From: Phycisphaerales bacterium
GTDB taxonomy: Bacteria; Planctomycetota; Phycisphaerae; Phycisphaerales; UBA1924
Direction: 5' to 3'
Assembly: GCA_965227605.1 (NCBI GenBank)
Contig: OZ245745.1
Coordinates: 945,694-1,009,693 of the forward strand
DNA length: 64,000 nt
How positions within the stretch are numbered: the stretch's first letter is position 1; every line of letters begins with the position of its first letter. Below, in pieces: positions 7,505-50,420 of the stretch. The notes beneath the pieces are model-generated. The model did no database searches and was not told the DNA's origin. It was given only the letters and a program-made list of their open reading frames with translations. The translations under genes were made by a program, and so were the position numbers.

Positions 7505-9550
7505 CTAGGCCCGCAGCTCGGCGCCGACGCCTTCTTTCAGCGCGCTGACGACGCTTTCGACCTGGGGGTCGACTTCTTCGTGGCGGAGGGTGCGGTTCGG
7601 GTCGCGGAACTTCATTCGGAACGTCACGGACTTCTGACCCTTGTCGAGGGGCTTGCCGCGGTAGACGCCGACGAAGTCGATGTGCTCGAGGAGCGCGGGG
7701 TCGGCGCTGCGGGTGAGGTGTTCGATCTCGCCCCAGGCGGTGGCTTCTTTCACGACGACGCTGAGGTCGCGTTCGATCGCGGGGAAGGCGGGGAGGTGCT
7801 CGGCTTTGCTCGCGGGCGGGTAGAGGTTGAGCAGGGCGTCCAAGTTCAGCTCGGCGGCGGCGAGGGGGACCTCGATGGGCCATTTTTTGCAGGCTTTTTT
7901 GTCGAGCAGGCCGAAGCAGCCGAGGACGTTTCCGTCGAGTGTGAGGCGCGCGAAGGCGTCTTCGCGGTAGGCGGTGCAGTAGGGGGCGTGGGGTTCGGCG
8001 GTGAGGTTGTGGCCTTCGCCGCCCAGGGTTTGGACGAGGGTGTCGATGGCGCCGCGGAGGGTGCGGGCGCCGGCCTGTTCGTCGGGGGCGTCGATGAGGA
8101 GCGTGACGTTGCGGTGCTCCATCGTTTCGCCCGACTCGGTTTCGGCGAAGACGGCGGCGGTCTCGAAGAGGCGGACGGCGCCGGGCTCGACGCCGGCGTT
8201 CTGGTTGACGAGGCGGCAATCGAGCAGGCTGGGCACGGCGGAGGGGCGGAGCGCGGGGGCTTCCTTGCGCCGGTTCTCGTCGACGGCCAGGGCGCGCAGG
8301 CCCGGCGGCATGAAGAGAGCGGCGTCGTCGCGCGTCGCGAAGCTGAAGGTGACGGTCTCGAAGAAGCCCATGCCGGTGAGGGCGTGGCCCAGGGCCTTGA
8401 GCGCGGACTCGCTGGTTTGCGGCGGCGCGGTGCGGGCGGGCATCTTCTCGTGGACGGGGATGGCGGCGAAGCCCTCGGCGCGGGCGACCTCTTCGATGAG
8501 GTCGATCTCGCGGGTCACGTCGTGACGGCGGTGGGGGGGCACGGCGCAGGTGAGCGCGCCCTCGGTGATCTGTGTTTCGAAGCCGAGACGGGTGAGGAGT
8601 TCGCCCATGCGCTCGGGGGTGAGTTCGATGCCGAGGATGGCGTTGCAGCGGGCGGCGCGGAGTGTGATGGTCGGCGCGCCCGCGAGCGGCGGGCCGACGG
8701 CGATGGCGCCTTCGACGAGCGTGCCGCCGGCGACCTCGACGATGAGCTGGGCGATGCGGTCCGCGGCGGCGTCGATCTGGGCGGGGTCGACGGTGCGCTC
8801 GAAGCGGTGGGAGGCGTCGGTGCGGAGGGTGTGGCGGCGGGCCGTCTCGCGGACGGTCGCGGGGTCCCAGGTGGCGGCTTCGAGGAGGACGTCGGTGGTG
8901 GCGTTGGTGACGCCGGAGTCGAGGCCGCCGATGACGCCGGCGAGGGAGCGGGCGCGCTCGGCATCAGCGACAACGACGTCGGCGGGATCGAGCTTGAGGT
9001 CGTGCTCGTCGAGGGTGGTGAGTTTCTCGCCCTTCTCGGCGGCGCGGATGACGAGGCGCTTCTCCGCGAGCGTGTTCAGATCGAAGACGTGCGAGGGTTG
9101 GCCCAGTTCCATGAGGGCGTAGTTGGTGACATCGACGACGTTGTTGATGGGGCGGAGGCCGATGGCTTCGAGGGCCTCGGCGAGCCACTTCGGGCTCGGG
9201 GCGACCTGCACGCCCTTGATGACGCGGGCGGTGAAGCGGGGGCAGAGGGCGTCGTCAACGAGCACCGACACGGCGGTTTCCTGCTCGACGGCTTTGCCGC
9301 TGGCGGCGGGGGCCTGGGGGATGACGAGCGTGCGCCCGGTGGCGGCGGCGATCTCGCGGGCGAGGCCGATGTGGGAGAGGGCGTCGCCGCGGTTGGAGGT
9401 GACCTCGACGTCGAGCTGGGTGTCGCCGGAGGGGAGTTCCACGCGTTCCTCGATGGGGAAACCGGCGTGGGTGAGAACCTGCTCGGCCTCGTCGGGCGAG
9501 CAGTCGGCGGGGTCGAGGTGCTTGTTGAGCCAGCGGACGGAGGTGATCAT
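7505..9550 (-). CDS. pheT: Phenylalanine--tRNA ligase beta subunit
   Basis: 681-aa ORF. The N-terminus MITSVRWLNKHLDP...SNRGDALSHIGLAREIAA matches the PheT B3/B4 and core domains by inspection. pheS is not adjacent. Confidence 0.85.
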   Translation of the reverse strand: MITSVRWLNKHLDPADCSPDEAEQVLTHAGFPIEERVELPSGDTQLDVEVTSNRGDALSHIGLAREIAAATGRTLVIPQAPAASGKAVEQETAVSVLVDDALCPRFTARVIKGVQVAPSPKWLAEALEAIGLRPINNVVDVTNYALMELGQPSHVFDLNTLAEKRLVIRAAEKGEKLTTLDEHDLKLDPADVVVADAERARSLAGVIGGLDSGVTNATTDVLLEAATWDPATVRETARRHTLRTDASHRFERTVDPAQIDAAADRIAQLIVEVAGGTLVEGAIAVGPPLAGAPTITLRAARCNAILGIELTPERMGELLTRLGFETQITEGALTCAVPPHRRHDVTREIDLIEEVARAEGFAAIPVHEKMPARTAPPQTSESALKALGHALTGMGFFETVTFSFATRDDAALFMPPGLRALAVDENRRKEAPALRPSAVPSLLDCRLVNQNAGVEPGAVRLFETAAVFAETESGETMEHRNVTLLIDAPDEQAGARTLRGAIDTLVQTLGGEGHNLTAEPHAPYCTAYREDAFARLTLDGNVLGCFGLLDKKACKKWPIEVPLAAAELNLDALLNLYPPASKAEHLPAFPAIERDLSVVVKEATAWGEIEHLTRSADPALLEHIDFVGVYRGKPLDKGQKSVTFRMKFRDPNRTLRHEEVDPQVESVVSALKEGVGAELRA

Positions 9551-9555
9551 GGGGG

Positions 9556-10985
9556 GAGGATAGCGAGAAATGCATCAGAAATGCTTCAGTAGGAACCATT
9601 TGCAAAAGCGATTCGAACCACAAGCTAAAACGCAAGGCGACAGTTAAAATTATTTAGTAGTCTTTGCAGCGTAGAGGTTTAAATAATATTGCACGCGTTC
9701 CACGATTTCATCGGCTTCGATAGAGTCATCCACTGCCTGAGTATTTTTTTCCGGTTTTAGCTGCATTCTTGTATAGACAGCTAGTAGTGGATCTGAAAAT
9801 GAGTAGCGTCCGCTAGCAGGGTCAAAGCGAACAAATGTACCTCGTTTGCTTGTTTGAAGTTCATTCAAATAATTGCTGAGGTTGCTTGCAGGATACTCTG
9901 GCGAATCTTTGTGTATAAGCTCAATTAGTTGGGCATGTGTTGCGCCTTCATCTGGCATCGAAGAAAGTGCTGTAAGAATTAAGCGTCCGTTATCATATTT
10001 TACTTCTCGATATCGGCGTATAGCTTTATCGTATCGTTTTTTGAGTGAATCTGATGATTCTCTTACGTATTCTCTGACGGCCTCGCTAAGGGAATCTTCT
10101 GAGACGGTGACTGTATCGTGCGCAGCGTGAGTGATTTCTGCGGCCCTGCATACGTTGAGAGCAATCTGGTGGCACACAGCGCCTAGGCCTGAAGAGTAAT
10201 CTATGATTCCTGAAATAACTTTGCTGGGCAAAATGATATTGAGGATTTTCTGACCTTGAGTTAGTATTTGGCCGAGTTCTTCATCGTCCATAAGGGGAAC
10301 ATGCACCTCACTAACTCTATTGGCAAGTTCTGGGTCATAATCAAGGATTTCTCGCGGGGAATCAGTTGCTCCAATGGCGATTACTTTTACTGTTGGATAA
10401 GCGCTGCTTTCGTCAACAAATACTTTTAGCGCTTGCGCTAGTTTTCCTTTGGCACCTCCAGATACTTTGTGAAAATCTTCAAGTACTAGGCACAAATCCT
10501 GTTCACCGAGCATCTGTGCTAGGCGCTGTGCAGTAAGTTGTGGTGGTACGAGTCTTTCGGCTGTTTCTGAGTTGCCGCTACTTATTCTGCTGTCGATAGT
10601 CGCACGGATAAAAGCATAGCTGGCTTGTACTGAAGCTGATTTACCTTGGCTATTTGATGCTGTTGCTGATGTTGTATAATATAAATTTAGCTGATCAAAA
10701 GCTTCAAGTAATACCTGTTCATATGTAGTGTCTTGTGTGCAGCGAACAGTCACATGGTTAGGGTACAGTTGGTGAAGCTTGTGGTAAATGAGCGAAGATT
10801 TGCCGGATCCCGACTGTCCGTATACTATCAATTGTTTTCCTGGGGTTTGTAGTGCATTGGTAATATCATTTTCTAAATCTGGTCGTTCGACAAAATTAAC
10901 TTTTGCATTTGTTCCTGGTGTAAAGACGTCATAGATAGAGTGAGGGGGTGTTGATGTAGGCATGGCTAAATATTGCAGCTTGCGC
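9556..10985. other. Low-GC (roughly 40%) compositional island, probable horizontally acquired insertion
   Basis: Abrupt drop in GC relative to flanking roughly 68% GC DNA. Carries a single gene (9650..10963). The island boundary lies inside the last codons of ruvB. Confidence 0.7.
9650..10963 (-). CDS. P-loop NTPase of unknown function (Walker A GQSGSGKS, Walker B LCLVLEDFH), foreign-composition gene
   Basis: 437-aa ORF. Walker A is LIVYGQSGSGKSSL (GxxGSGKS-type as in the FtsK/HerA/AAA-like classes). A hydrophobic-DE Walker B lies ~110 aa later. ~200-aa C-terminal domain with no recognisable motif. AT-rich codon usage unlike the neighbours. Confidence 0.7.
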   Translation of the reverse strand: MPTSTPPHSIYDVFTPGTNAKVNFVERPDLENDITNALQTPGKQLIVYGQSGSGKSSLIYHKLHQLYPNHVTVRCTQDTTYEQVLLEAFDQLNLYYTTSATASNSQGKSASVQASYAFIRATIDSRISSGNSETAERLVPPQLTAQRLAQMLGEQDLCLVLEDFHKVSGGAKGKLAQALKVFVDESSAYPTVKVIAIGATDSPREILDYDPELANRVSEVHVPLMDDEELGQILTQGQKILNIILPSKVISGIIDYSSGLGAVCHQIALNVCRAAEITHAAHDTVTVSEDSLSEAVREYVRESSDSLKKRYDKAIRRYREVKYDNGRLILTALSSMPDEGATHAQLIELIHKDSPEYPASNLSNYLNELQTSKRGTFVRFDPASGRYSFSDPLLAVYTRMQLKPEKNTQAVDDSIEADEIVERVQYYLNLYAAKTTK

Positions 10986-11958
10986 CGGCCTCCGTCAACT
11001 GCCGCCCACGCCGCGTCCGCGCCAGGAACCCAATTTGCAACAAAAACGGTTCCACCACGTCTTCCAGTGTGCCGGAGTCTTCGCCCATGGTGGCGGCGAT
11101 GGCTTCGAGGCCGACGGGGCCGCCGTCGTAGACGGTGGCGATGGCTTTGAGGTACTTGCGGTCGAGTTCGTCGAGGCCGAGGGGGTCGACGCCTTCTAAG
11201 GCGAGGGCTTCTTCGACGCAGGCGGTGGTGACGCGGCCGTCCATGCGTACCTGGGCGTAGTCGCGGACGCGCCTTAGGAGGCGGTTGGCGATGCGGGGGG
11301 TGCCGCGGGAGCGGGCGGCGATGAGGTCGAGGGCCGCGTCGTCGTCGATGGTCATGTCGAGGAGGCGGGCGGAGCGGGTGACGATGGTGAGGAGTTCTTC
11401 GGGTGAGTAGAAGGCGAGGTTGTGGGAGACGCCGAAGCGGGAGCGGAGGGGGGCGGAGACCATGCCCGCGCGGGTGGTGGCGCCGATGACGGTGAAGGGT
11501 TTGAGCTCGATGGAGACGGTGCGCCCGTGCATGCCTGAGTCGACGGTGATGTCGATGCGGTGGTCTTCCATGGCGGGGTAGATGAACTCTTCGACGGCGG
11601 GGGGCATGCGGTGGATCTCATCGATGAAGAGGAGGTCGGCGTTTTCGAGGCGTGTGAGGGCGCCGACGAGGTCGGCGCCGCGGGTGAGGGCGGGGCCGCT
11701 GGTGACGTGGGCGCGGGAGCCCATCTCGGCGGCGAGGACGTGGGCGAGTGTGGTCTTGCCGAGGCCGGGGGGCCCGTGGAGGAGGGTGTGCTCCATGGGT
11801 TCGGTGCGGGCGCGGGCGGCCTCGGCGGCGATGGAGAGGCGCTCGAGGAGCTCGGCCTGGCCCACGAAGTCGTCGAAGCGCTCGGGGCGGAGGGACCAGT
11901 TGACGCGTTCGTCGGTCTCGGAGACGGCGGCGGCGCTGATGATGCGTTCGGTGGCCAT
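10966..11958 (-). CDS. ruvB: Holliday junction branch migration helicase RuvB
   Basis: LLHGPPGLGKTTLAHVLAAEMG (Walker A) and LFIDEIHRMPPAVEEFIYPAMED (Walker B/sensor), typical RuvB. The start is set at MATERII (residue 24 of ORF 10966..12027). The last codons (ASCNI) are AT-rich and may derive from the adjacent insertion. Confidence 0.9.
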   Translation of the reverse strand: MATERIISAAAVSETDERVNWSLRPERFDDFVGQAELLERLSIAAEAARARTEPMEHTLLHGPPGLGKTTLAHVLAAEMGSRAHVTSGPALTRGADLVGALTRLENADLLFIDEIHRMPPAVEEFIYPAMEDHRIDITVDSGMHGRTVSIELKPFTVIGATTRAGMVSAPLRSRFGVSHNLAFYSPEELLTIVTRSARLLDMTIDDDAALDLIAARSRGTPRIANRLLRRVRDYAQVRMDGRVTTACVEEALALEGVDPLGLDELDRKYLKAIATVYDGGPVGLEAIAATMGEDSGTLEDVVEPFLLQIGFLARTRRGRQLTEAGASCNI

Positions 11959-12072
11959 GGTGTTGGATTGTATCGGGTGGGGGAGGGATGTTTGGGGAGT
12001 AGATGGGGTAGGTGGGGAGGCGGACACTGACAGCGAGCTGCCAGTGGCACCCTTGTGGGTTCGCTTGCTTTT

Positions 12073-12441
12073 TTAGTCCATCCAGACGTCGGTGACGGTG
12101 GCGCTGGCCATCTGGACGTAGAGGGTGCGGACGGTGCCGTTGGAGTTGTTGCGTGCGTGGAGGCGGTAGGAGCCGCCGACCATCTGGTAGCGGTACTTCC
12201 AGACTTCCTGGAGGGGGTCGTCGAGGGGTTCGACGTCGGTGGCGGGGCCGAGGACGGCTTCGAGCCAGTCGGCGGTGGTTTCGCCGGGCTTGATGCGGTC
12301 GATGGTTTTCTGGCCGACGAGTCGGGCGTCGGGGGGGAGGAAGCCGAAGCGTCGGTTGTTGGAGGATTTGCAGGCGGTGAGCGTCGCGCCGGCGATGGCG
12401 AGCGTGAGTGTGCAGGCGGTGATTTTGTAGGCGTGGCGCAT
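12073..12441 (-). CDS. Lipoprotein, BamE/SmpA-OmlA-like
   Basis: Signal peptide with lipobox LTAC. The mature region IKPGETTADWLEAVLGPAT...W.Y resembles the BamE fold pattern. Small (122 aa). Confidence 0.45.
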   Translation of the reverse strand: MRHAYKITACTLTLAIAGATLTACKSSNNRRFGFLPPDARLVGQKTIDRIKPGETTADWLEAVLGPATDVEPLDDPLQEVWKYRYQMVGGSYRLHARNNSNGTVRTLYVQMASATVTDVWMD

Positions 12442-13075: not shown

Positions 13076-13915
13076 TTAGAGGTGGACGATGATGCGCAGG
13101 CGGACCTTGACGGTTTCGTTCGGGGCGAGGGCGTCGATGCGCTGGCCGCGGGCGCGCCAGCGGTAGATGACGTCGAGGTAGGGGCGGTCGATGTCGGGGT
13201 TGCCGGAGGAAGCCAGTCGTTTGACAGCGTGAACGCCCCCGTCGGGGTTGAAAGCGATCTCGACGAAGAGGGGTTTGGGTCGTGCGGTGACGGCGGTGTA
13301 GGCGCTGAAGTCGGGGCCCTTGCGGGTGGTGAGGATTTCGAGGCCTTCGGCGGCGATGGGTTTGCCCCACTGGATTTTGATGGGCTCTTCGATGGAGAAG
13401 GCGTCGGACTCGCGCTCGGCGTTGCCGGGGTTGGGCGCGGGCTCGGGGGCGGGTTGGGCGGCGGCGGTTTCGGTTGGTTGGGGTTGTGGTTCGGGCTGGG
13501 GCTCTTCGGCGGGGACGTCGCTGGTGGTGAGGTCAATTTGCTGGAGGGCGCGGAGGGCGGCGCTAAGCGCGGTGGCGGCGGTTTGGCTGGCGGCTTCGGC
13601 GCGGCGGGTGAGCTGTTCGAAGGCGGCGCGGGTGGCGGGGCTGCCACCGCCGGTTTGCTGGGCGGCCTGCTCGAGGGTGGACTGGCGGGCCTGCTGTTCG
13701 ACGGGTTCCCGGAAGCCGATCCAGGTGATGGTGGGGGCGGCGGAGTCGCGGATGCCGAGGGGGGTGCGGTCGGCGGGTGGCGGGGGGATGGCGGCGGCTG
13801 AGGTGGTGTTTTCCCAAGCGATAGCGCCGACTGCCAGAGCGTGGAGAATCACGCTTAGCGCGGCTGCAACGGCGATTCTGGCCTCGAAACCGTGCTCGCG
13901 GTCGGGGTCCGGCAT
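13076..13915 (-). CDS. tonB: TonB family energy transducer
   Basis: N-terminal TM segment (IAVAAALSVILHALAVGAIAW). Central Pro/Glu/Gln-rich spacer (PEPQPQPTETAAAQPAPEPAPNPG). C-terminal ~90-aa TonB-C-like domain. Confidence 0.6.
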   Translation of the reverse strand: MPDPDREHGFEARIAVAAALSVILHALAVGAIAWENTTSAAAIPPPPADRTPLGIRDSAAPTITWIGFREPVEQQARQSTLEQAAQQTGGGSPATRAAFEQLTRRAEAASQTAATALSAALRALQQIDLTTSDVPAEEPQPEPQPQPTETAAAQPAPEPAPNPGNAERESDAFSIEEPIKIQWGKPIAAEGLEILTTRKGPDFSAYTAVTARPKPLFVEIAFNPDGGVHAVKRLASSGNPDIDRPYLDVIYRWRARGQRIDALAPNETVKVRLRIIVHL

Positions 13916-47698: not shown

Positions 47699-49333
<1,635 letters not shown>

Positions 49334-49383
49334 GTCGAGAGCACAAAAAGTTCGGCCGCCTTTAACCGGGCGGTCGGGCATTC

Positions 49384-50217
49384 ATGGTCGTCCTTGACAA
49401 TCAGCGGGCGTTGAACGCAAGGCATCGTCGTGGCTATTGCTATCTTTGTGGCAAGCCATTTGAGCGCGAAGACATCACAAAGGACCATGCGCCTCCGATC
49501 AATCTCTTTGATCAAAATGATCGACAAAACGTTGTAATACTACCAGCTCATTTTAAATGTAACCAAGCAGCGTCATTCGACGATGAACGATCGATACAAT
49601 TACTAACTCCATATCTATGGGGTAACTCGATATCAAAAGATCGGCTACGCTTGAACTATCGCGCAGTTCACGACGAAAACACTCAACGGAATATAGGTGG
49701 AATCCGGGGAGCCGAACTTTACAGAGCTATATACCGTTGGATTCAAGGCTTTCATTGTCTGTTGTACGATGAATTTTTGCCACCACATCCAGTGACGAAG
49801 CATGCCATATCTTGCCCTCTGTATAGAGGTGTTGAACAAGAAGACGAGATGAAGATGCACGGACCTCAGCCTGCTCACCGTGTAATGGTTCGGCAATTAC
49901 GTATCAACAGACTGGCGTCGCGAGTGGATCGGATTGAAGCGTACAACGGTAAATTGAAGTATGAGTGCTGCTGGGTACGTATGGATGATGGGAGCCCAGC
50001 ATGTCTCTGGGGTATGCAAATATATGATTGGGAGAAGCTGACTCCTCAAGAATTTTTTCCTAAGCACGGCTGTGTCGGTTTTTATTTATCGTCTAATGGT
50101 AAGCCTGTGCGGGCAGAATGGTCTACGAGCGTGGAATACGATCATTCGTTGGATGATCTTTTACCCTTCGACTCTGCAGAGTCCCCTGCGACAGCGCCCC
50201 AGAATCCGACAGACTAA
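49384..50217 (+). CDS. HNH (His-Me finger) nuclease-domain protein with ~190-aa C-terminal domain of unknown function
   Basis: The N-terminus CYLCGKPFEREDITKDHAPPINLF ... ILPAHFKCNQ fits the CxxC / DH / H..CN HNH pattern. The rest is Cys/Trp-rich and unassignable. Confidence 0.6.
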   Translation: MVVLDNQRALNARHRRGYCYLCGKPFEREDITKDHAPPINLFDQNDRQNVVILPAHFKCNQAASFDDERSIQLLTPYLWGNSISKDRLRLNYRAVHDENTQRNIGGIRGAELYRAIYRWIQGFHCLLYDEFLPPHPVTKHAISCPLYRGVEQEDEMKMHGPQPAHRVMVRQLRINRLASRVDRIEAYNGKLKYECCWVRMDDGSPACLWGMQIYDWEKLTPQEFFPKHGCVGFYLSSNGKPVRAEWSTSVEYDHSLDDLLPFDSAESPATAPQNPTD

Positions 50218-50367
50218 GTGTAGTGCTGGTTGTGAATCTATTAGCGATTTGAAGGACTTTCCTGACAGCCGCTTCATTGTCGTCTACTTCTGAACTGCCG
50301 CAAACCCTTCAAGCGACTCTTCCAACGCATTGGCAAACTTCACGGCCTTCACGCTTACCCACAGCAC

Positions 50368-50399
50368 GAAAAAACCGGCCCCAATCACTCGGGGCCGGT
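50368..50399 (-). terminator. Rho-independent terminator for the PEP-CTERM gene (minus strand: CCGGCCCCGAGTGATTGGGGCCGG plus T7)
   Basis: 8-bp GC stem, followed by TTTTTTT on the minus strand, 20 nt after the stop of 50421..51167. Confidence 0.65.
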
Positions 50400-50420
50400 C
50401 GGGACAAGATTTCGTAATGA

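What the first reader, a model, noticed from the sequence alone, without database searches (positions are those of the whole stretch)
9556..10990. Low-GC island carrying a solitary P-loop ATPase, inserted flush against (and possibly into) the 3' end of ruvB
A ~1.4-kb block of roughly 40% GC sits inside a genome of roughly 68% GC. It encodes one 437-aa protein with a GxxGSGKS Walker A (LIVYGQSGSGKSSL), a Walker B ~110 aa later, and a ~200-aa C-terminal domain I cannot place. Its start codon lies 2 nt after the ruvB stop on the same strand. The last five codons of ruvB (ASCNI) are themselves AT-rich, so the insertion may have replaced the native ruvB C-terminus. Solitary foreign ATPases of this type are often components, or remnants, of defence or mobile-element systems. 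Being co-transcribed with ruvB is unusual.
Basis: partly seen in the sequence, partly recalled or inferred. Interest (0 to 1): 0.72.

Follow-up and report, generated by a model that had tools for sequence, protein, structure and literature searches.

The report
Foreign defence-candidate ATPase beside ruvB
One recently acquired foreign gene, encoding a stand-alone STAND/ORC-like ATPase from an untested candidate anti-phage family, has been spliced between ruvB and pheT of a Phycisphaeraceae genome, at a junction where related genomes carry other, unrelated foreign genes.

Summary
Window 9553-10981 has 43% GC against 66.6 +/- 3.1% elsewhere (z = -7.7). It holds one intact 437-aa ORF (9650-10963, minus strand; GC3 0.33 vs 0.83-0.92 in neighbours) whose ATG lies 2 nt after the ruvB stop.

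Seven related loci show that the native order is ruvB, Cdd1-like gene (opposite strand), pheT, with a native RuvB tail ...TEAGA-AHA(AG)*. The window swapped that tail for SCNI*, and lost the Cdd1-like gene and the whole pheT upstream region. Three relatives carry different, unrelated lower-GC single-ORF inserts that start at the same ruvB nucleotide, so this junction is a recurrent hotspot.

The protein matches PADLOC candidate PDC-S59 over its full length (6e-32) and Pfam AAA_16/nSTAND1. A confident model shows an AAA+ core, lid and winged helix, closest to the archaeal ATPases PABY2304/SSO1545 and to Orc1/Cdc6. Close relatives add C-terminal TIR, HEAT, TPR or FGE-sulfatase domains. Remote relatives sit in the P2 phage gpA-gpQ defence hotspot and beside DISARM-like and TIR genes.

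The best reading is a single-gene candidate defence cassette, probably transcribed by read-through from ruvB. Its function is untested. It is a new member of a known kind, of moderate interest. The repeated precise junction is the unexplained part.

The parts
9553..10981 (.). Foreign low-GC segment (1429 bp) that replaces the native ruvB tail, the spacer, the Cdd1-like gene and the pheT upstream region
   Evidence: Homology to relative L002 ends at 10982 and resumes at 9552. The same left breakpoint is seen against L096, L098, L100, L101 and L102. GC 0.431, z = -7.7.
9650..10963 (-). 437-aa stand-alone STAND/ORC-like AAA+ NTPase gene (PADLOC PDC-S59-like candidate defence gene)
10796..10819 (-). 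Walker A / P-loop codons (residues 49-56, GQSGSGKS)
   Evidence: G49, G54 and K55 are invariant in the 38-sequence alignment.
10469..10492 (-). Walker-B-like strand and motif (residues 158-165, CLVLEDFH)
   Evidence: E162, D163, F164 and H165 are invariant. The strand E158-162 appears in the model.
9758..9991 (-). C-terminal winged-helix domain (residues 325-402)
   Evidence: Model secondary structure is H325-334, H343-353, H359-369, E378-381, E386-389, H392-402. Conserved YDNxRLIL ... YPxxN ... FxDP. Full-length fold matches to ATPase+WH proteins 2qen, 2fna and Cdc6/Orc1.
10966..10980 (-). Foreign-encoded replacement tail of RuvB (S-C-N-I-stop)
   Evidence: Relatives with native-GC DNA downstream end ...TEAGA-AHA* or -AHAAG*. 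The window ends -SCNI*.
10966..11958 (-). ruvB (330 aa), left anchor of the hotspot
   Evidence: Pfam RuvB_N 3e-66, AAA_lid_4, RuvB_C. PDB RuvB 6e-102. Start at 11958 per the gene call in L001 and the orthologues.
9553..9649 (-). 97-nt low-GC spacer between the ATPase stop and the pheT start; replaces the native pheT upstream region
   Evidence: GC 0.44. No terminator-like site on the minus strand. Fold no better than shuffles, z = 0.19. Only 2 nt upstream of the pheT ATG are shared with L002.
7505..9550 (-). pheT (681 aa), right anchor; now directly downstream of the foreign gene
   Evidence: 79% aa identity to L002 pheT. Syntenic in L002 and L102.
10969..10998 (-). Promoter-like consensus match straddling the junction (-35 TTGACG in ruvB, -10 AATATT in the insert); weak evidence only
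   Evidence: Consensus scan found 4 sites against 1.7 +/- 1.2 expected. The organism's promoter type is unknown.

Best explanation
Window 9553-10981 is a recently acquired single-gene accessory cassette, not yet adjusted to the host's base composition. It sits in a recurrently rewritten hotspot at the 3' end of ruvB in a Phycisphaeraceae lineage.

Shown. About 0.5-0.6 kb of native DNA was replaced by 1.43 kb of ~43% GC DNA carrying one intact gene. The lost native DNA comprised the last 3-5 ruvB codons, a ~145-nt spacer, a Cdd1-like gene on the opposite strand, and the pheT upstream region. The size of the loss is estimated from relatives.

Shown at the level of sequence, fold and family. The gene encodes a stand-alone P-loop NTPase with a STAND/ORC-like architecture: an AAA+ core with a helical insertion between strands 2 and 3, then a helical lid, a winged helix and a variable C-terminal helix. 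It belongs to a large, patchily distributed family that PADLOC lists as the untested single-gene phage-defence candidate PDC-S59.

Inferred function. It is most likely an anti-phage or anti-mobile-element immunity gene. The protein probably acts as a nucleotide-dependent switch. On sensing an invader, it would bind ATP and oligomerise. This may happen on DNA, through the insertion and the winged helix, as its nearest structural relatives Orc1/Cdc6, TnsC and MuB do. The result would be blocked invader replication or arrested growth of the infected cell. Relatives that carry C-terminal TIR, HEAT, TPR or FGE-sulfatase domains suggest that the core is the regulatory engine of an NLR-like system.

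Inferred expression. No promoter space precedes the ATG and no terminator follows the gene. It is probably transcribed by read-through from the ruvB operon, and pheT probably now depends on transcription through, or from within, the insert.
For: Foreignness and recency:
- GC z = -7.7, and GC3 0.33 against ~0.9 in neighbours.
- The gene is absent from syntenic relatives.
- The nearest homologue anywhere is 49% identical.

Hotspot:
- L100 is an empty site: ruvB, ~145 nt, Cdd1-like (-), pheT start.
- The window, L002, L096 and L102 carry mutually unrelated lower-GC single-ORF inserts that begin at the same ruvB nucleotide.

Family:
- PDC-S59 6e-32 over the full length. A core PDC-S59 member on a Shewanella conjugative plasmid scores 221 bits.
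- 422 cluster representatives at E<=1e-30, mostly 420-480 aa.
- All 40 invariant family residues are retained in the window's protein.

Fold:
- pLDDT 87.8.

Conflict-system signals:
- Close relatives are fused to TIR (2.6e-17), FGE-sulfatase (7e-42), HEAT, TPR, or a second NACHT-like NTPase.
- A remote relative combines the NTPase with TIR and sits next to caspase-family and TIR genes.
- A remote full-length relative (hhalign 99.4%) lies in the P2 gpA-gpQ hotspot. That locus is a documented defence hotspot (PMC9122126).
- Homologues lie next to a helicase/DUF1998/PLD (DISARM-like) trio with Schlafen and IS110 genes, next to TIR, HNH and integrase genes, and next to DUF87, SACS-like and nuclease genes.
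- The gene has lower GC than its flanks in 7 of 7 loci.
- PDC candidates were derived from genes embedded in BREX, DISARM and type I RM loci. 4 of 8 other PADLOC candidates protected E. coli.

Expression:
- The ATG is 2 nt after the ruvB stop. No minus-strand terminator was found and the spacer is unstructured.
Against: - No member of this family has been tested. PDC-S59 is explicitly an untested candidate.
- The window's protein has neither an effector nor a sensor domain, so the output activity is unknown.
- Three of six homologue contexts examined are plain housekeeping neighbourhoods.
- The other cargos at this hotspot have no defence annotation.
- No relatives were recovered from IMG/VR with the family motifs. 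Only one distant hit was found among 50,697 phage records.
- The DNA-binding and oligomerisation steps rest on fold analogy only.
- Transcription was not measured, and planctomycete promoters are not covered by the scan.
Confidence: 0.55

Rival explanations
1. The gene is the last surviving piece of a larger integrative or transposable element that used the ruvB 3' end as its attachment site. On this view the ATPase was an element-maintenance or target-selection protein of the TniB/TnsC/MuB/IstB type. A later deletion removed the recombinase and everything up to the pheT start codon.
For: - The left junction is precise and recurrent at one ruvB nucleotide in four genomes.
- The right junction is flush with the ATG of an essential gene, as expected if a deletion was stopped by selection.
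- Two remote relatives give weak Pfam TniB hits, 2e-5.
Against: - No transposase, integrase, terminal inverted repeats or att-like direct repeats are present.
- The replacement ruvB tails are unrelated to the native tail, unlike att-site duplications.
- The family is solitary, with no recurrent recombinase partner, in all contexts examined.
- The window's own protein has no TniB hit.
- Family fusions are to TIR, HEAT, TPR and FGE-sulfatase domains, not to transposition modules.
Confidence: 0.12
2. It is an accessory cellular regulator rather than an immunity gene. It would be an ORC/Cdc6- or MalT-like ATP-dependent DNA-binding switch that controls replication, chromosome handling or transcription of some host process.
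For: - Best fold matches include the Orc1/Cdc6 initiators and MalT.
- It has a winged-helix C-terminus.
- Several homologues sit among housekeeping genes.
- The nearest solved structures, 2qen and 2fna, have no known function.
Against: - Distribution is patchy and the gene is compositionally foreign in 7 of 7 hosts.
- It is absent from the closest relatives.
- The TIGR02928 orc1/cdc6 score is 17 bits against a cut-off of 181.
- TIR fusions and phage-hotspot, DISARM-like and TIR neighbourhoods point to conflict systems.
Confidence: 0.13
3. It is a functionally inert passenger. The gene arrived by an illegitimate recombination event and persists only because it now lies between ruvB and the essential pheT, so that a clean deletion would damage pheT expression.
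For: - The native pheT upstream region, including the divergent Cdd1-like gene, is gone. Only foreign DNA precedes pheT.
- There is no own promoter space for the ATPase gene.
- The other cargos at the hotspot have no recognisable function.
Against: - The ORF is intact and full length, and it retains every invariant residue of a family under clear purifying selection.
- The same sequence occurs in two records without disruption.
Confidence: 0.1
4. It is an assembly or binning artefact, meaning a chimeric join of a low-GC contig into a high-GC genome.
For: The GC step is abrupt, and the data are metagenome-derived.
Against: - Both junctions fall within a few nucleotides of gene ends, and the reading frames remain usable.
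- The arrangement is identical in a 2.76-Mb NCBI contig and in an ENA contig.
- Three relatives show analogous inserts at the same nucleotide.
Confidence: 0.02

Closest known systems
PADLOC phage defence candidate PDC-S59 (single-gene candidate from Payne et al., bioRxiv 10.1101/2024.01.29.577857)
   Same: The HMM matches over the full length (E = 6e-32; 90% of the profile, 87% of the protein). The protein has the same size and the same stand-alone architecture. A core member (221 bits) sits on a conjugative plasmid.
   Different: The window's clade is a divergent branch, scoring 70-114 bits against 221 for a core member and about 22-25% identical to RefSeq members. The candidate itself has never been tested and no mechanism has been proposed.
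STAND / NLR-like NTPases of bacterial conflict systems (Pfam nSTAND1, AAA_16; Avs-type defence proteins)
   Same: - A P-loop core, helical domain and winged-helix module.
- Pfam AAA_16 (38.2 bits, cut-off 32.6) and nSTAND1 (29.2 bits, cut-off 27.1).
- Walker B of the hhhhEDxH type, a GAxDxxR segment after strand 4, and a GL(A/P) motif in the lid. Reading these as STAND-type motifs is my own knowledge.
- Close relatives carry TIR, HEAT, TPR or FGE-sulfatase extensions.
Archaeal AAA+ ATPases PABY2304 (PDB 2qen) and SSO1545 (2fna), Pfam ATPase_2 (PF01637)
   Different: Sequence identity is only 15%. The Pfam ATPase_2 score of 20.1 bits is below the 33.2 cut-off. These proteins have no assigned function, so the match gives the architecture but not the activity.
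Orc1/Cdc6 replication initiators and the related DNA-bound AAA+ switches TnsC and MuB
   Different: It fails the orc1/cdc6 family model (17 bits against 181). There is no origin or transposase context. Bacterial, patchy and foreign distribution argues against a replication role.
Variable hotspots between conserved genes that collect defence genes (P2 gpA-gpQ locus, Rousset et al. 2022, PMC9122126; core defence hotspots of Pseudomonas, PMC10250203)
   Same: Conserved flanking genes, with different unrelated cargo in related genomes at the same junction and an empty site in one relative. A remote family member sits in the P2 hotspot itself.
   Different: The cargo here is one co-oriented ORF per genome, with no promoter space. 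The left junction lies inside the coding end of ruvB at one and the same nucleotide. Only one of the four cargos has any defence annotation.

Membership tests
PADLOC PDC-S59 | Significant, near-full-length match to the PDC-S59 HMM (the only formal criterion for a single-gene PADLOC candidate) | tested here: met
   E = 6e-32, 109 bits, protein 21-399 against profile 17-401/428. Four family members also match.
PADLOC PDC-S59 | Occurrence embedded in or next to known defence systems (the basis on which PDCs were nominated) | tested here: inconclusive
   Not the case in the window, where the neighbours are ruvB and pheT. It holds for some homologues: a DISARM-like trio with Schlafen, TIR and HNH genes, and the P2 hotspot for a remote relative. 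Three other contexts are housekeeping.
PADLOC PDC-S59 | Demonstrated anti-phage activity | not testable with these tools
   No experiment appears in the literature held.
STAND NTPases | P-loop NTPase with Walker A and Walker B | tested here: met
   GQSGSGKS (49-56) and CLVLEDFH (158-165). G49, G54, K55, E162 and D163 are invariant in 38 sequences.
STAND NTPases | NTPase followed by a helical domain and a winged-helix domain (NOD module) | tested here: met
STAND NTPases | Match to a curated STAND family model above its threshold | tested here: met
   Pfam AAA_16 38.2 bits (cut-off 32.6) and nSTAND1 29.2 bits (cut-off 27.1). The second is marginal.
STAND NTPases | Additional effector and/or repeat sensor domains in the same polypeptide | tested here: not met
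   The window's protein ends after one variable helix (412-436), with no other domain. Close relatives do carry TIR, HEAT, TPR or FGE-sulfatase domains.
Orc1/Cdc6 initiators | Match to the orc1/cdc6 family model | tested here: not met
   TIGR02928 scores 17 bits against a cut-off of 181.3. The PDB profile search finds only the ORC5 P-loop, E = 0.002.
Orc1/Cdc6 initiators | AAA+ core, lid and C-terminal winged-helix fold | tested here: met
Transposition AAA+ helpers (TniB/TnsC/MuB/IstB) | Genetic linkage to a transposase and transposon ends | tested here: not met
   No transposase ORF or terminal repeats in or next to the island. No recurrent transposase appears next to homologues.
Pfam ATPase_2 (PF01637; PABY2304/SSO1545) | Pfam model above the gathering threshold | tested here: not met
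Site-specific integrative element at a gene 3' end | Recombinase gene plus att-type direct repeats that duplicate the target's 3' end | tested here: not met
   No recombinase and no flanking direct repeats. The replacement tails SCNI, NSAGA, QYAKQ and SFPHL are unrelated to the native AHA(AG).
Integron gene cassette | attC-type imperfect inverted repeat with a GTTRRRY core at cassette boundaries, and an intI gene nearby | tested here: not met
   The junction sequences lack the core. The four inserts share no end motif. No structured element lies in the 3' spacer. The absence of intI in the whole genome could not be tested.

The most novel reading that the evidence does not exclude
The 3' end of ruvB in this Phycisphaeraceae clade may be a site-specific capture point for promoterless single-gene cassettes. 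Four unrelated foreign ORFs in four genomes are joined at the same nucleotide, co-oriented with ruvB, and each rewrites the last RuvB codons. On this reading they are expressed from the host operon. That would be integron-like in logic, but without a recognisable integrase, attC site or repeats. In the window, the captured cassette would be a minimal, core-only NLR/STAND-type ATPase that confers immunity on its own, without a fused effector or sensor.
Probability: 0.12. Interest if true: 0.72.

Novelty: new member of a known kind. Interest (0 to 1): 0.42.

Why it matters
The finding gives a clean natural example of how a single candidate immunity gene enters a streamlined, high-GC planctomycete genome. 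The gene has no mobility genes of its own. It is wedged into a housekeeping operon, rewrites the end of ruvB, and replaces the upstream region of the essential pheT.

It also places an abundant environmental clade within an untested PADLOC candidate family: about 420 cluster representatives at E<=1e-30. Its close relatives show NLR-style domain shuffling (TIR, HEAT, TPR, FGE-sulfatase). That makes the stand-alone core a good, small target for testing how a minimal STAND/ORC-like ATPase could act in defence.

The repeated use of one ruvB nucleotide as a junction by unrelated cargos is unexplained. If it reflects a dedicated mechanism, it would be a new route of gene capture.

Tried and rejected
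- Flanking direct or inverted repeats at 9553/10981: only chance-level matches. The one flanking pair (13 nt, 85%, 9531-9543 / 10989-11001) lies in coding DNA and is not conserved in L002.
- tRNA, tmRNA and Rfam families as integration targets: none in the whole window.
- Remnant of the native ruvB tail on the far side of the insert: none in any frame.
- More distant ruvB loci (80 metagenome loci, 58-73% identical): none has pheT or the small lipoprotein gene nearby. They could not serve as empty sites, but they did reveal the longer ancestral RuvB tail.
- IMG/VR scan with the family alignment: no relatives.
- BFVD fold search: only generic clamp-loader AAA+ similarity.
- PDB sequence profile search: only P-loop-level hits.
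- NCBIfam: no family above threshold, including all named anti-phage ATPase models.
- Pfam and PADLOC on the alternative cargos of L002, L096 and L102: no hits except a sub-threshold MORN_2 repeat. The hotspot therefore cannot be called a defence hotspot.
- Shared end motifs or k-mers among the four inserts: none.
- Integron attC core: absent.
- Terminator in the ATPase-pheT spacer: none.
- Literature search for PDC-S59: no paper text and no supplement of the source paper names it.
- Functional link between the ATPase and RuvB: rejected, because none of six homologue contexts contains ruvB.
Full report
**1. The observation.** The minus strand of window 7.5-14 kb carries a co-directional run of genes: a TonB-like ORF (13076-13915), a 192-aa ORF, a small lipoprotein ORF (12073-12441), ruvB, a 437-aa ORF (9650-10963) and pheT (7505-9550). 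GC in 300-nt windows falls from 0.68-0.74 to 0.39-0.47 between about 9560 and 10990 and then returns. The segment 9553-10981 has GC 0.431. All other windows of the same size in the 64 kb average 0.666 +/- 0.031, with a minimum of 0.518, giving z = -7.7. The ORF's third-position GC is 0.33, against 0.83-0.92 in the five neighbouring genes. The ruvB stop (TAG, 10968-10966) is followed by CC and then by the ATG of the 437-aa ORF. The same 13 kb is 100% identical in an ENA contig, and the protein is also recorded on a 2.76-Mb NCBI contig. One correction: ruvB most likely starts at the ATG at 11958 and encodes 330 aa.

**2. What was there before.** The only species-level genome with a close PheT (79% identical) is an uncultured Phycisphaeraceae MAG (locus L002). 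It is collinear with the window on both sides. Homology stops at window 10982, 14 nt upstream of the ruvB stop codon, and resumes at 9552, 2 nt before the pheT ATG. A RuvB search found seven further proteins that are 85-92% identical, and contigs could be read for five of them.

The resulting junctions:
- L100 is an empty site. ruvB ends ...TDAGA-AHAAG*, followed by ~145 nt of native GC, a Cdd1-family gene on the opposite strand, and the beginning of pheT at the contig end.
- L098/L099 also have a native tail (...TEAGA-AHA*) and native-GC DNA, but different downstream genes (CpeT-like, holB).
- L101 has native-GC DNA and another arrangement.
- L002 and L102 keep Cdd1-like and pheT, but each has a lower-GC block directly after ruvB (0.50-0.56 over 0.8 kb, and 0.42-0.55 over 0.5 kb).
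- L096 has DNA of 0.33-0.47 GC after ruvB and ends 433 nt later.

The native order in this subclade is therefore ruvB, Cdd1-like (-), pheT. The window has lost the native RuvB tail codons, the spacer, the Cdd1-like gene and the whole pheT upstream region, and has gained 1.43 kb of foreign DNA.

**3. The RuvB C-terminus.** The native tail AHA(AG) is replaced by SCNI, encoded by the foreign DNA. The RuvB winged-helix domain is otherwise intact: Pfam RuvB_C covers positions 2-68 of 72, and alignment to solved RuvB structures runs to residue 323-324 of 330. More distant Phycisphaerae RuvB proteins continue for 12-30 residues (xHLG ... LF). That longer tail was already lost in the ancestor of this clade, so the ATPase insertion did not cause that loss.

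**4. A recurrent junction.** The window, L002, L096 and L102 all diverge from the native sequence at the same column, right after ...ACG GAG GCx GGx GCx. The four inserts share no k-mer of 12 or more, no end motif and no repeats. Each carries one ORF in the ruvB orientation, starting between 14 nt before and 72 nt after the new ruvB stop: the 437-aa ATPase, a 237-aa ORF, an ORF of at least 149 aa, and a 147-aa ORF. If left breakpoints were independent and uniform over the ~160 nt that can be replaced in the empty site, three further hits within +/-1 nt would be very unlikely, on the order of 1e-5. That figure is my own rough estimate and assumes independence. There is no integrase, no att-type duplication and no attC core, and I cannot explain the precision. 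Homologous exchange between strains can move such alleles but cannot create them. This is the most unusual aspect of the locus.

**5. The protein.** PADLOC's PDC-S59 model matches over the full length (E = 6e-32). Pfam gives AAA_16, AAA_22 and, marginally, nSTAND1. PHROG 6841, of unknown function, matches at 2e-28. No NCBIfam model comes near its threshold.

The family is large but patchy. The word-indexed search found 393 hits, the nearest 49% identical, from Phycisphaerae, Dormibacteria, Dehalococcoidia and many unnamed metagenome contigs. A profile search of 1.84 billion representatives found 422 at E<=1e-30 and about 2000 at E<=1e-10, mostly 420-480 aa. The alignment shows about 40 invariant positions across 400 residues, all of them present in the window's protein.

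**6. Evidence bearing on function.** PDC systems are 145 untested candidates, nominated because family members are embedded in BREX, DISARM or type I RM loci. PDC-S59 appears in no paper text and in no supplement of the source paper. In one study, 4 of 8 other PADLOC candidates protected E. coli, which I use as a rough prior.

Independent support found here:
- Close relatives, with the whole 400-aa module at E<=1e-100, carry C-terminal TIR, FGE-sulfatase, HEAT or TPR domains, or a second NACHT-like NTPase. This is NLR-style combinatorics.
- A remote relative on a Curtobacterium plasmid has the NTPase plus TIR and sits next to caspase-family and TIR genes.
- A remote full-length relative (hhalign probability 99.4%) lies between gpA/Tum and the portal gene of a P2-type phage genome. 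That is the hotspot Rousset et al. describe as a reservoir of anti-phage systems (PMC9122126).
- A Gordonia phage relative lies between the tail genes and the integrase.
- Homologues in metagenomes lie next to a helicase/DUF1998/PLD trio with Schlafen and IS110 genes, next to TIR, HNH and integrase genes, and next to DUF87, SACS-like and nuclease genes.
- The gene has lower GC than its flanks in 7 of 7 loci.

Against this, three contexts are plain housekeeping, and the protein has no effector domain.

**7. Most likely mechanism.** Shown: the gene is a recently acquired, intact, stand-alone STAND/ORC-like NTPase gene in a recurrent hotspot. Inferred: it is an immunity gene whose product is a nucleotide-dependent switch. 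The switch would oligomerise on sensing an invader, possibly on DNA through the insertion and the winged helix, as Orc1/Cdc6, TnsC and MuB do, and would block invader replication or arrest the cell. The output step is unknown. I put about 0.55 on the defence role and much less on the mechanistic details.

Expression: no promoter space precedes the ATG. No terminator-like site or stable hairpin lies between the gene and pheT. A promoter-like match straddles the junction (10998-10969), and another lies in the 3' end of the gene (9711-9683). Co-transcription of ruvB, the ATPase gene and pheT is therefore plausible but not shown.

**8. Rivals.**
- Remnant of a larger integrative or transposable element, about 0.12. 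This is favoured by the precise junction, but there is no recombinase, no repeats and no transposase partner anywhere in the family.
- A cellular ORC/MalT-like regulator, about 0.13.
- An inert passenger locked in place by pheT, about 0.10.
- An assembly artefact, about 0.02.

**9. Novelty and score.** The gene is a divergent new member of a catalogued but untested candidate defence family. Single foreign defence-type genes in variable spots between core genes are common, so the core finding is a solid but ordinary one. What raises the interest somewhat is the four-fold identical junction inside ruvB with unrelated, co-oriented single-ORF cargos, together with the minimal, core-only form of an NLR-like ATPase. 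Overall interest is 0.42.

Noticed in passing
window 49300-50400 (ORF 49384-50217, + strand): A second single-ORF low-GC block (GC 0.45-0.50, GC3 0.44) lies 50 nt downstream of groEL (47699-49333, Cpn60 3e-76) on the same strand. The 277-aa ORF has no Pfam or PADLOC hit, but it shows a CxxC...DH...HxxCN pattern that looks HNH-like by eye. GroEL's C-terminus is intact and a hairpin follows its stop codon, so the junction differs from the ruvB one.
   Followed up: partly
L003-L082 (RuvB C-termini); window 10966-10990: Nearly all Phycisphaerae and planctomycete RuvB orthologues (58-74% identical) carry a 12-30 residue C-terminal extension, xHLG(L/V) followed by a linker and ending in (Q)xxLF. By eye this resembles a beta-clamp-binding motif. 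The extension is absent from the whole clade with RuvB >=85% identical to the window, which ends ...TEAGA plus 3-9 residues.
   Followed up: partly
L096 8979-9429 and L097 (same sample, ERR1739693): Two assemblies of the same run both break 433 nt after ruvB, inside a 33-47% GC insert. This fits strain heterogeneity or low coverage at the hotspot. The partial ORF there (at least 149 aa) overlaps the new ruvB tail in another frame and has no Pfam hit.
   Followed up: partly
L092 (CP074296.1, Salmonella 'plasmid' pCFSAN006171_2): This 30-kb circular record filed as a plasmid is a P2-type phage genome. It encodes CII, replication endonuclease, Tum, portal, terminase, capsid and holin genes. Its gpA-gpQ hotspot holds a 405-aa ATP-binding protein that is remotely but fully homologous to the window's ATPase.
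   Followed up: yes
L002 6855-7568 and L102 ~1774-2217: The alternative cargos at the same ruvB junction both begin with a hydrophobic, signal-peptide-like N-terminus. They are the 237-aa ORF in L002 and the 147-aa ORF in L102, the latter with a sub-threshold MORN_2 repeat. These look like secreted or membrane proteins rather than ATPases.
   Followed up: partly
window 10966-12027: The mechanical ORF list extends ruvB to a GTG at 12027 (353 aa). The gene call in the identical ENA contig and all orthologues start at the ATG at 11958 (MATERIIS..., 330 aa).
   Followed up: yes
window 9531-9543 / 10989-11001: A 13-nt imperfect inverted pair (CAGCGGACGGAGG / CCTCCGTCAACTG) brackets the island about 9 nt outside each junction, within the pheT and ruvB coding sequence. 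The pheT arm is not conserved in L002, so I regard it as chance.
   Followed up: partly
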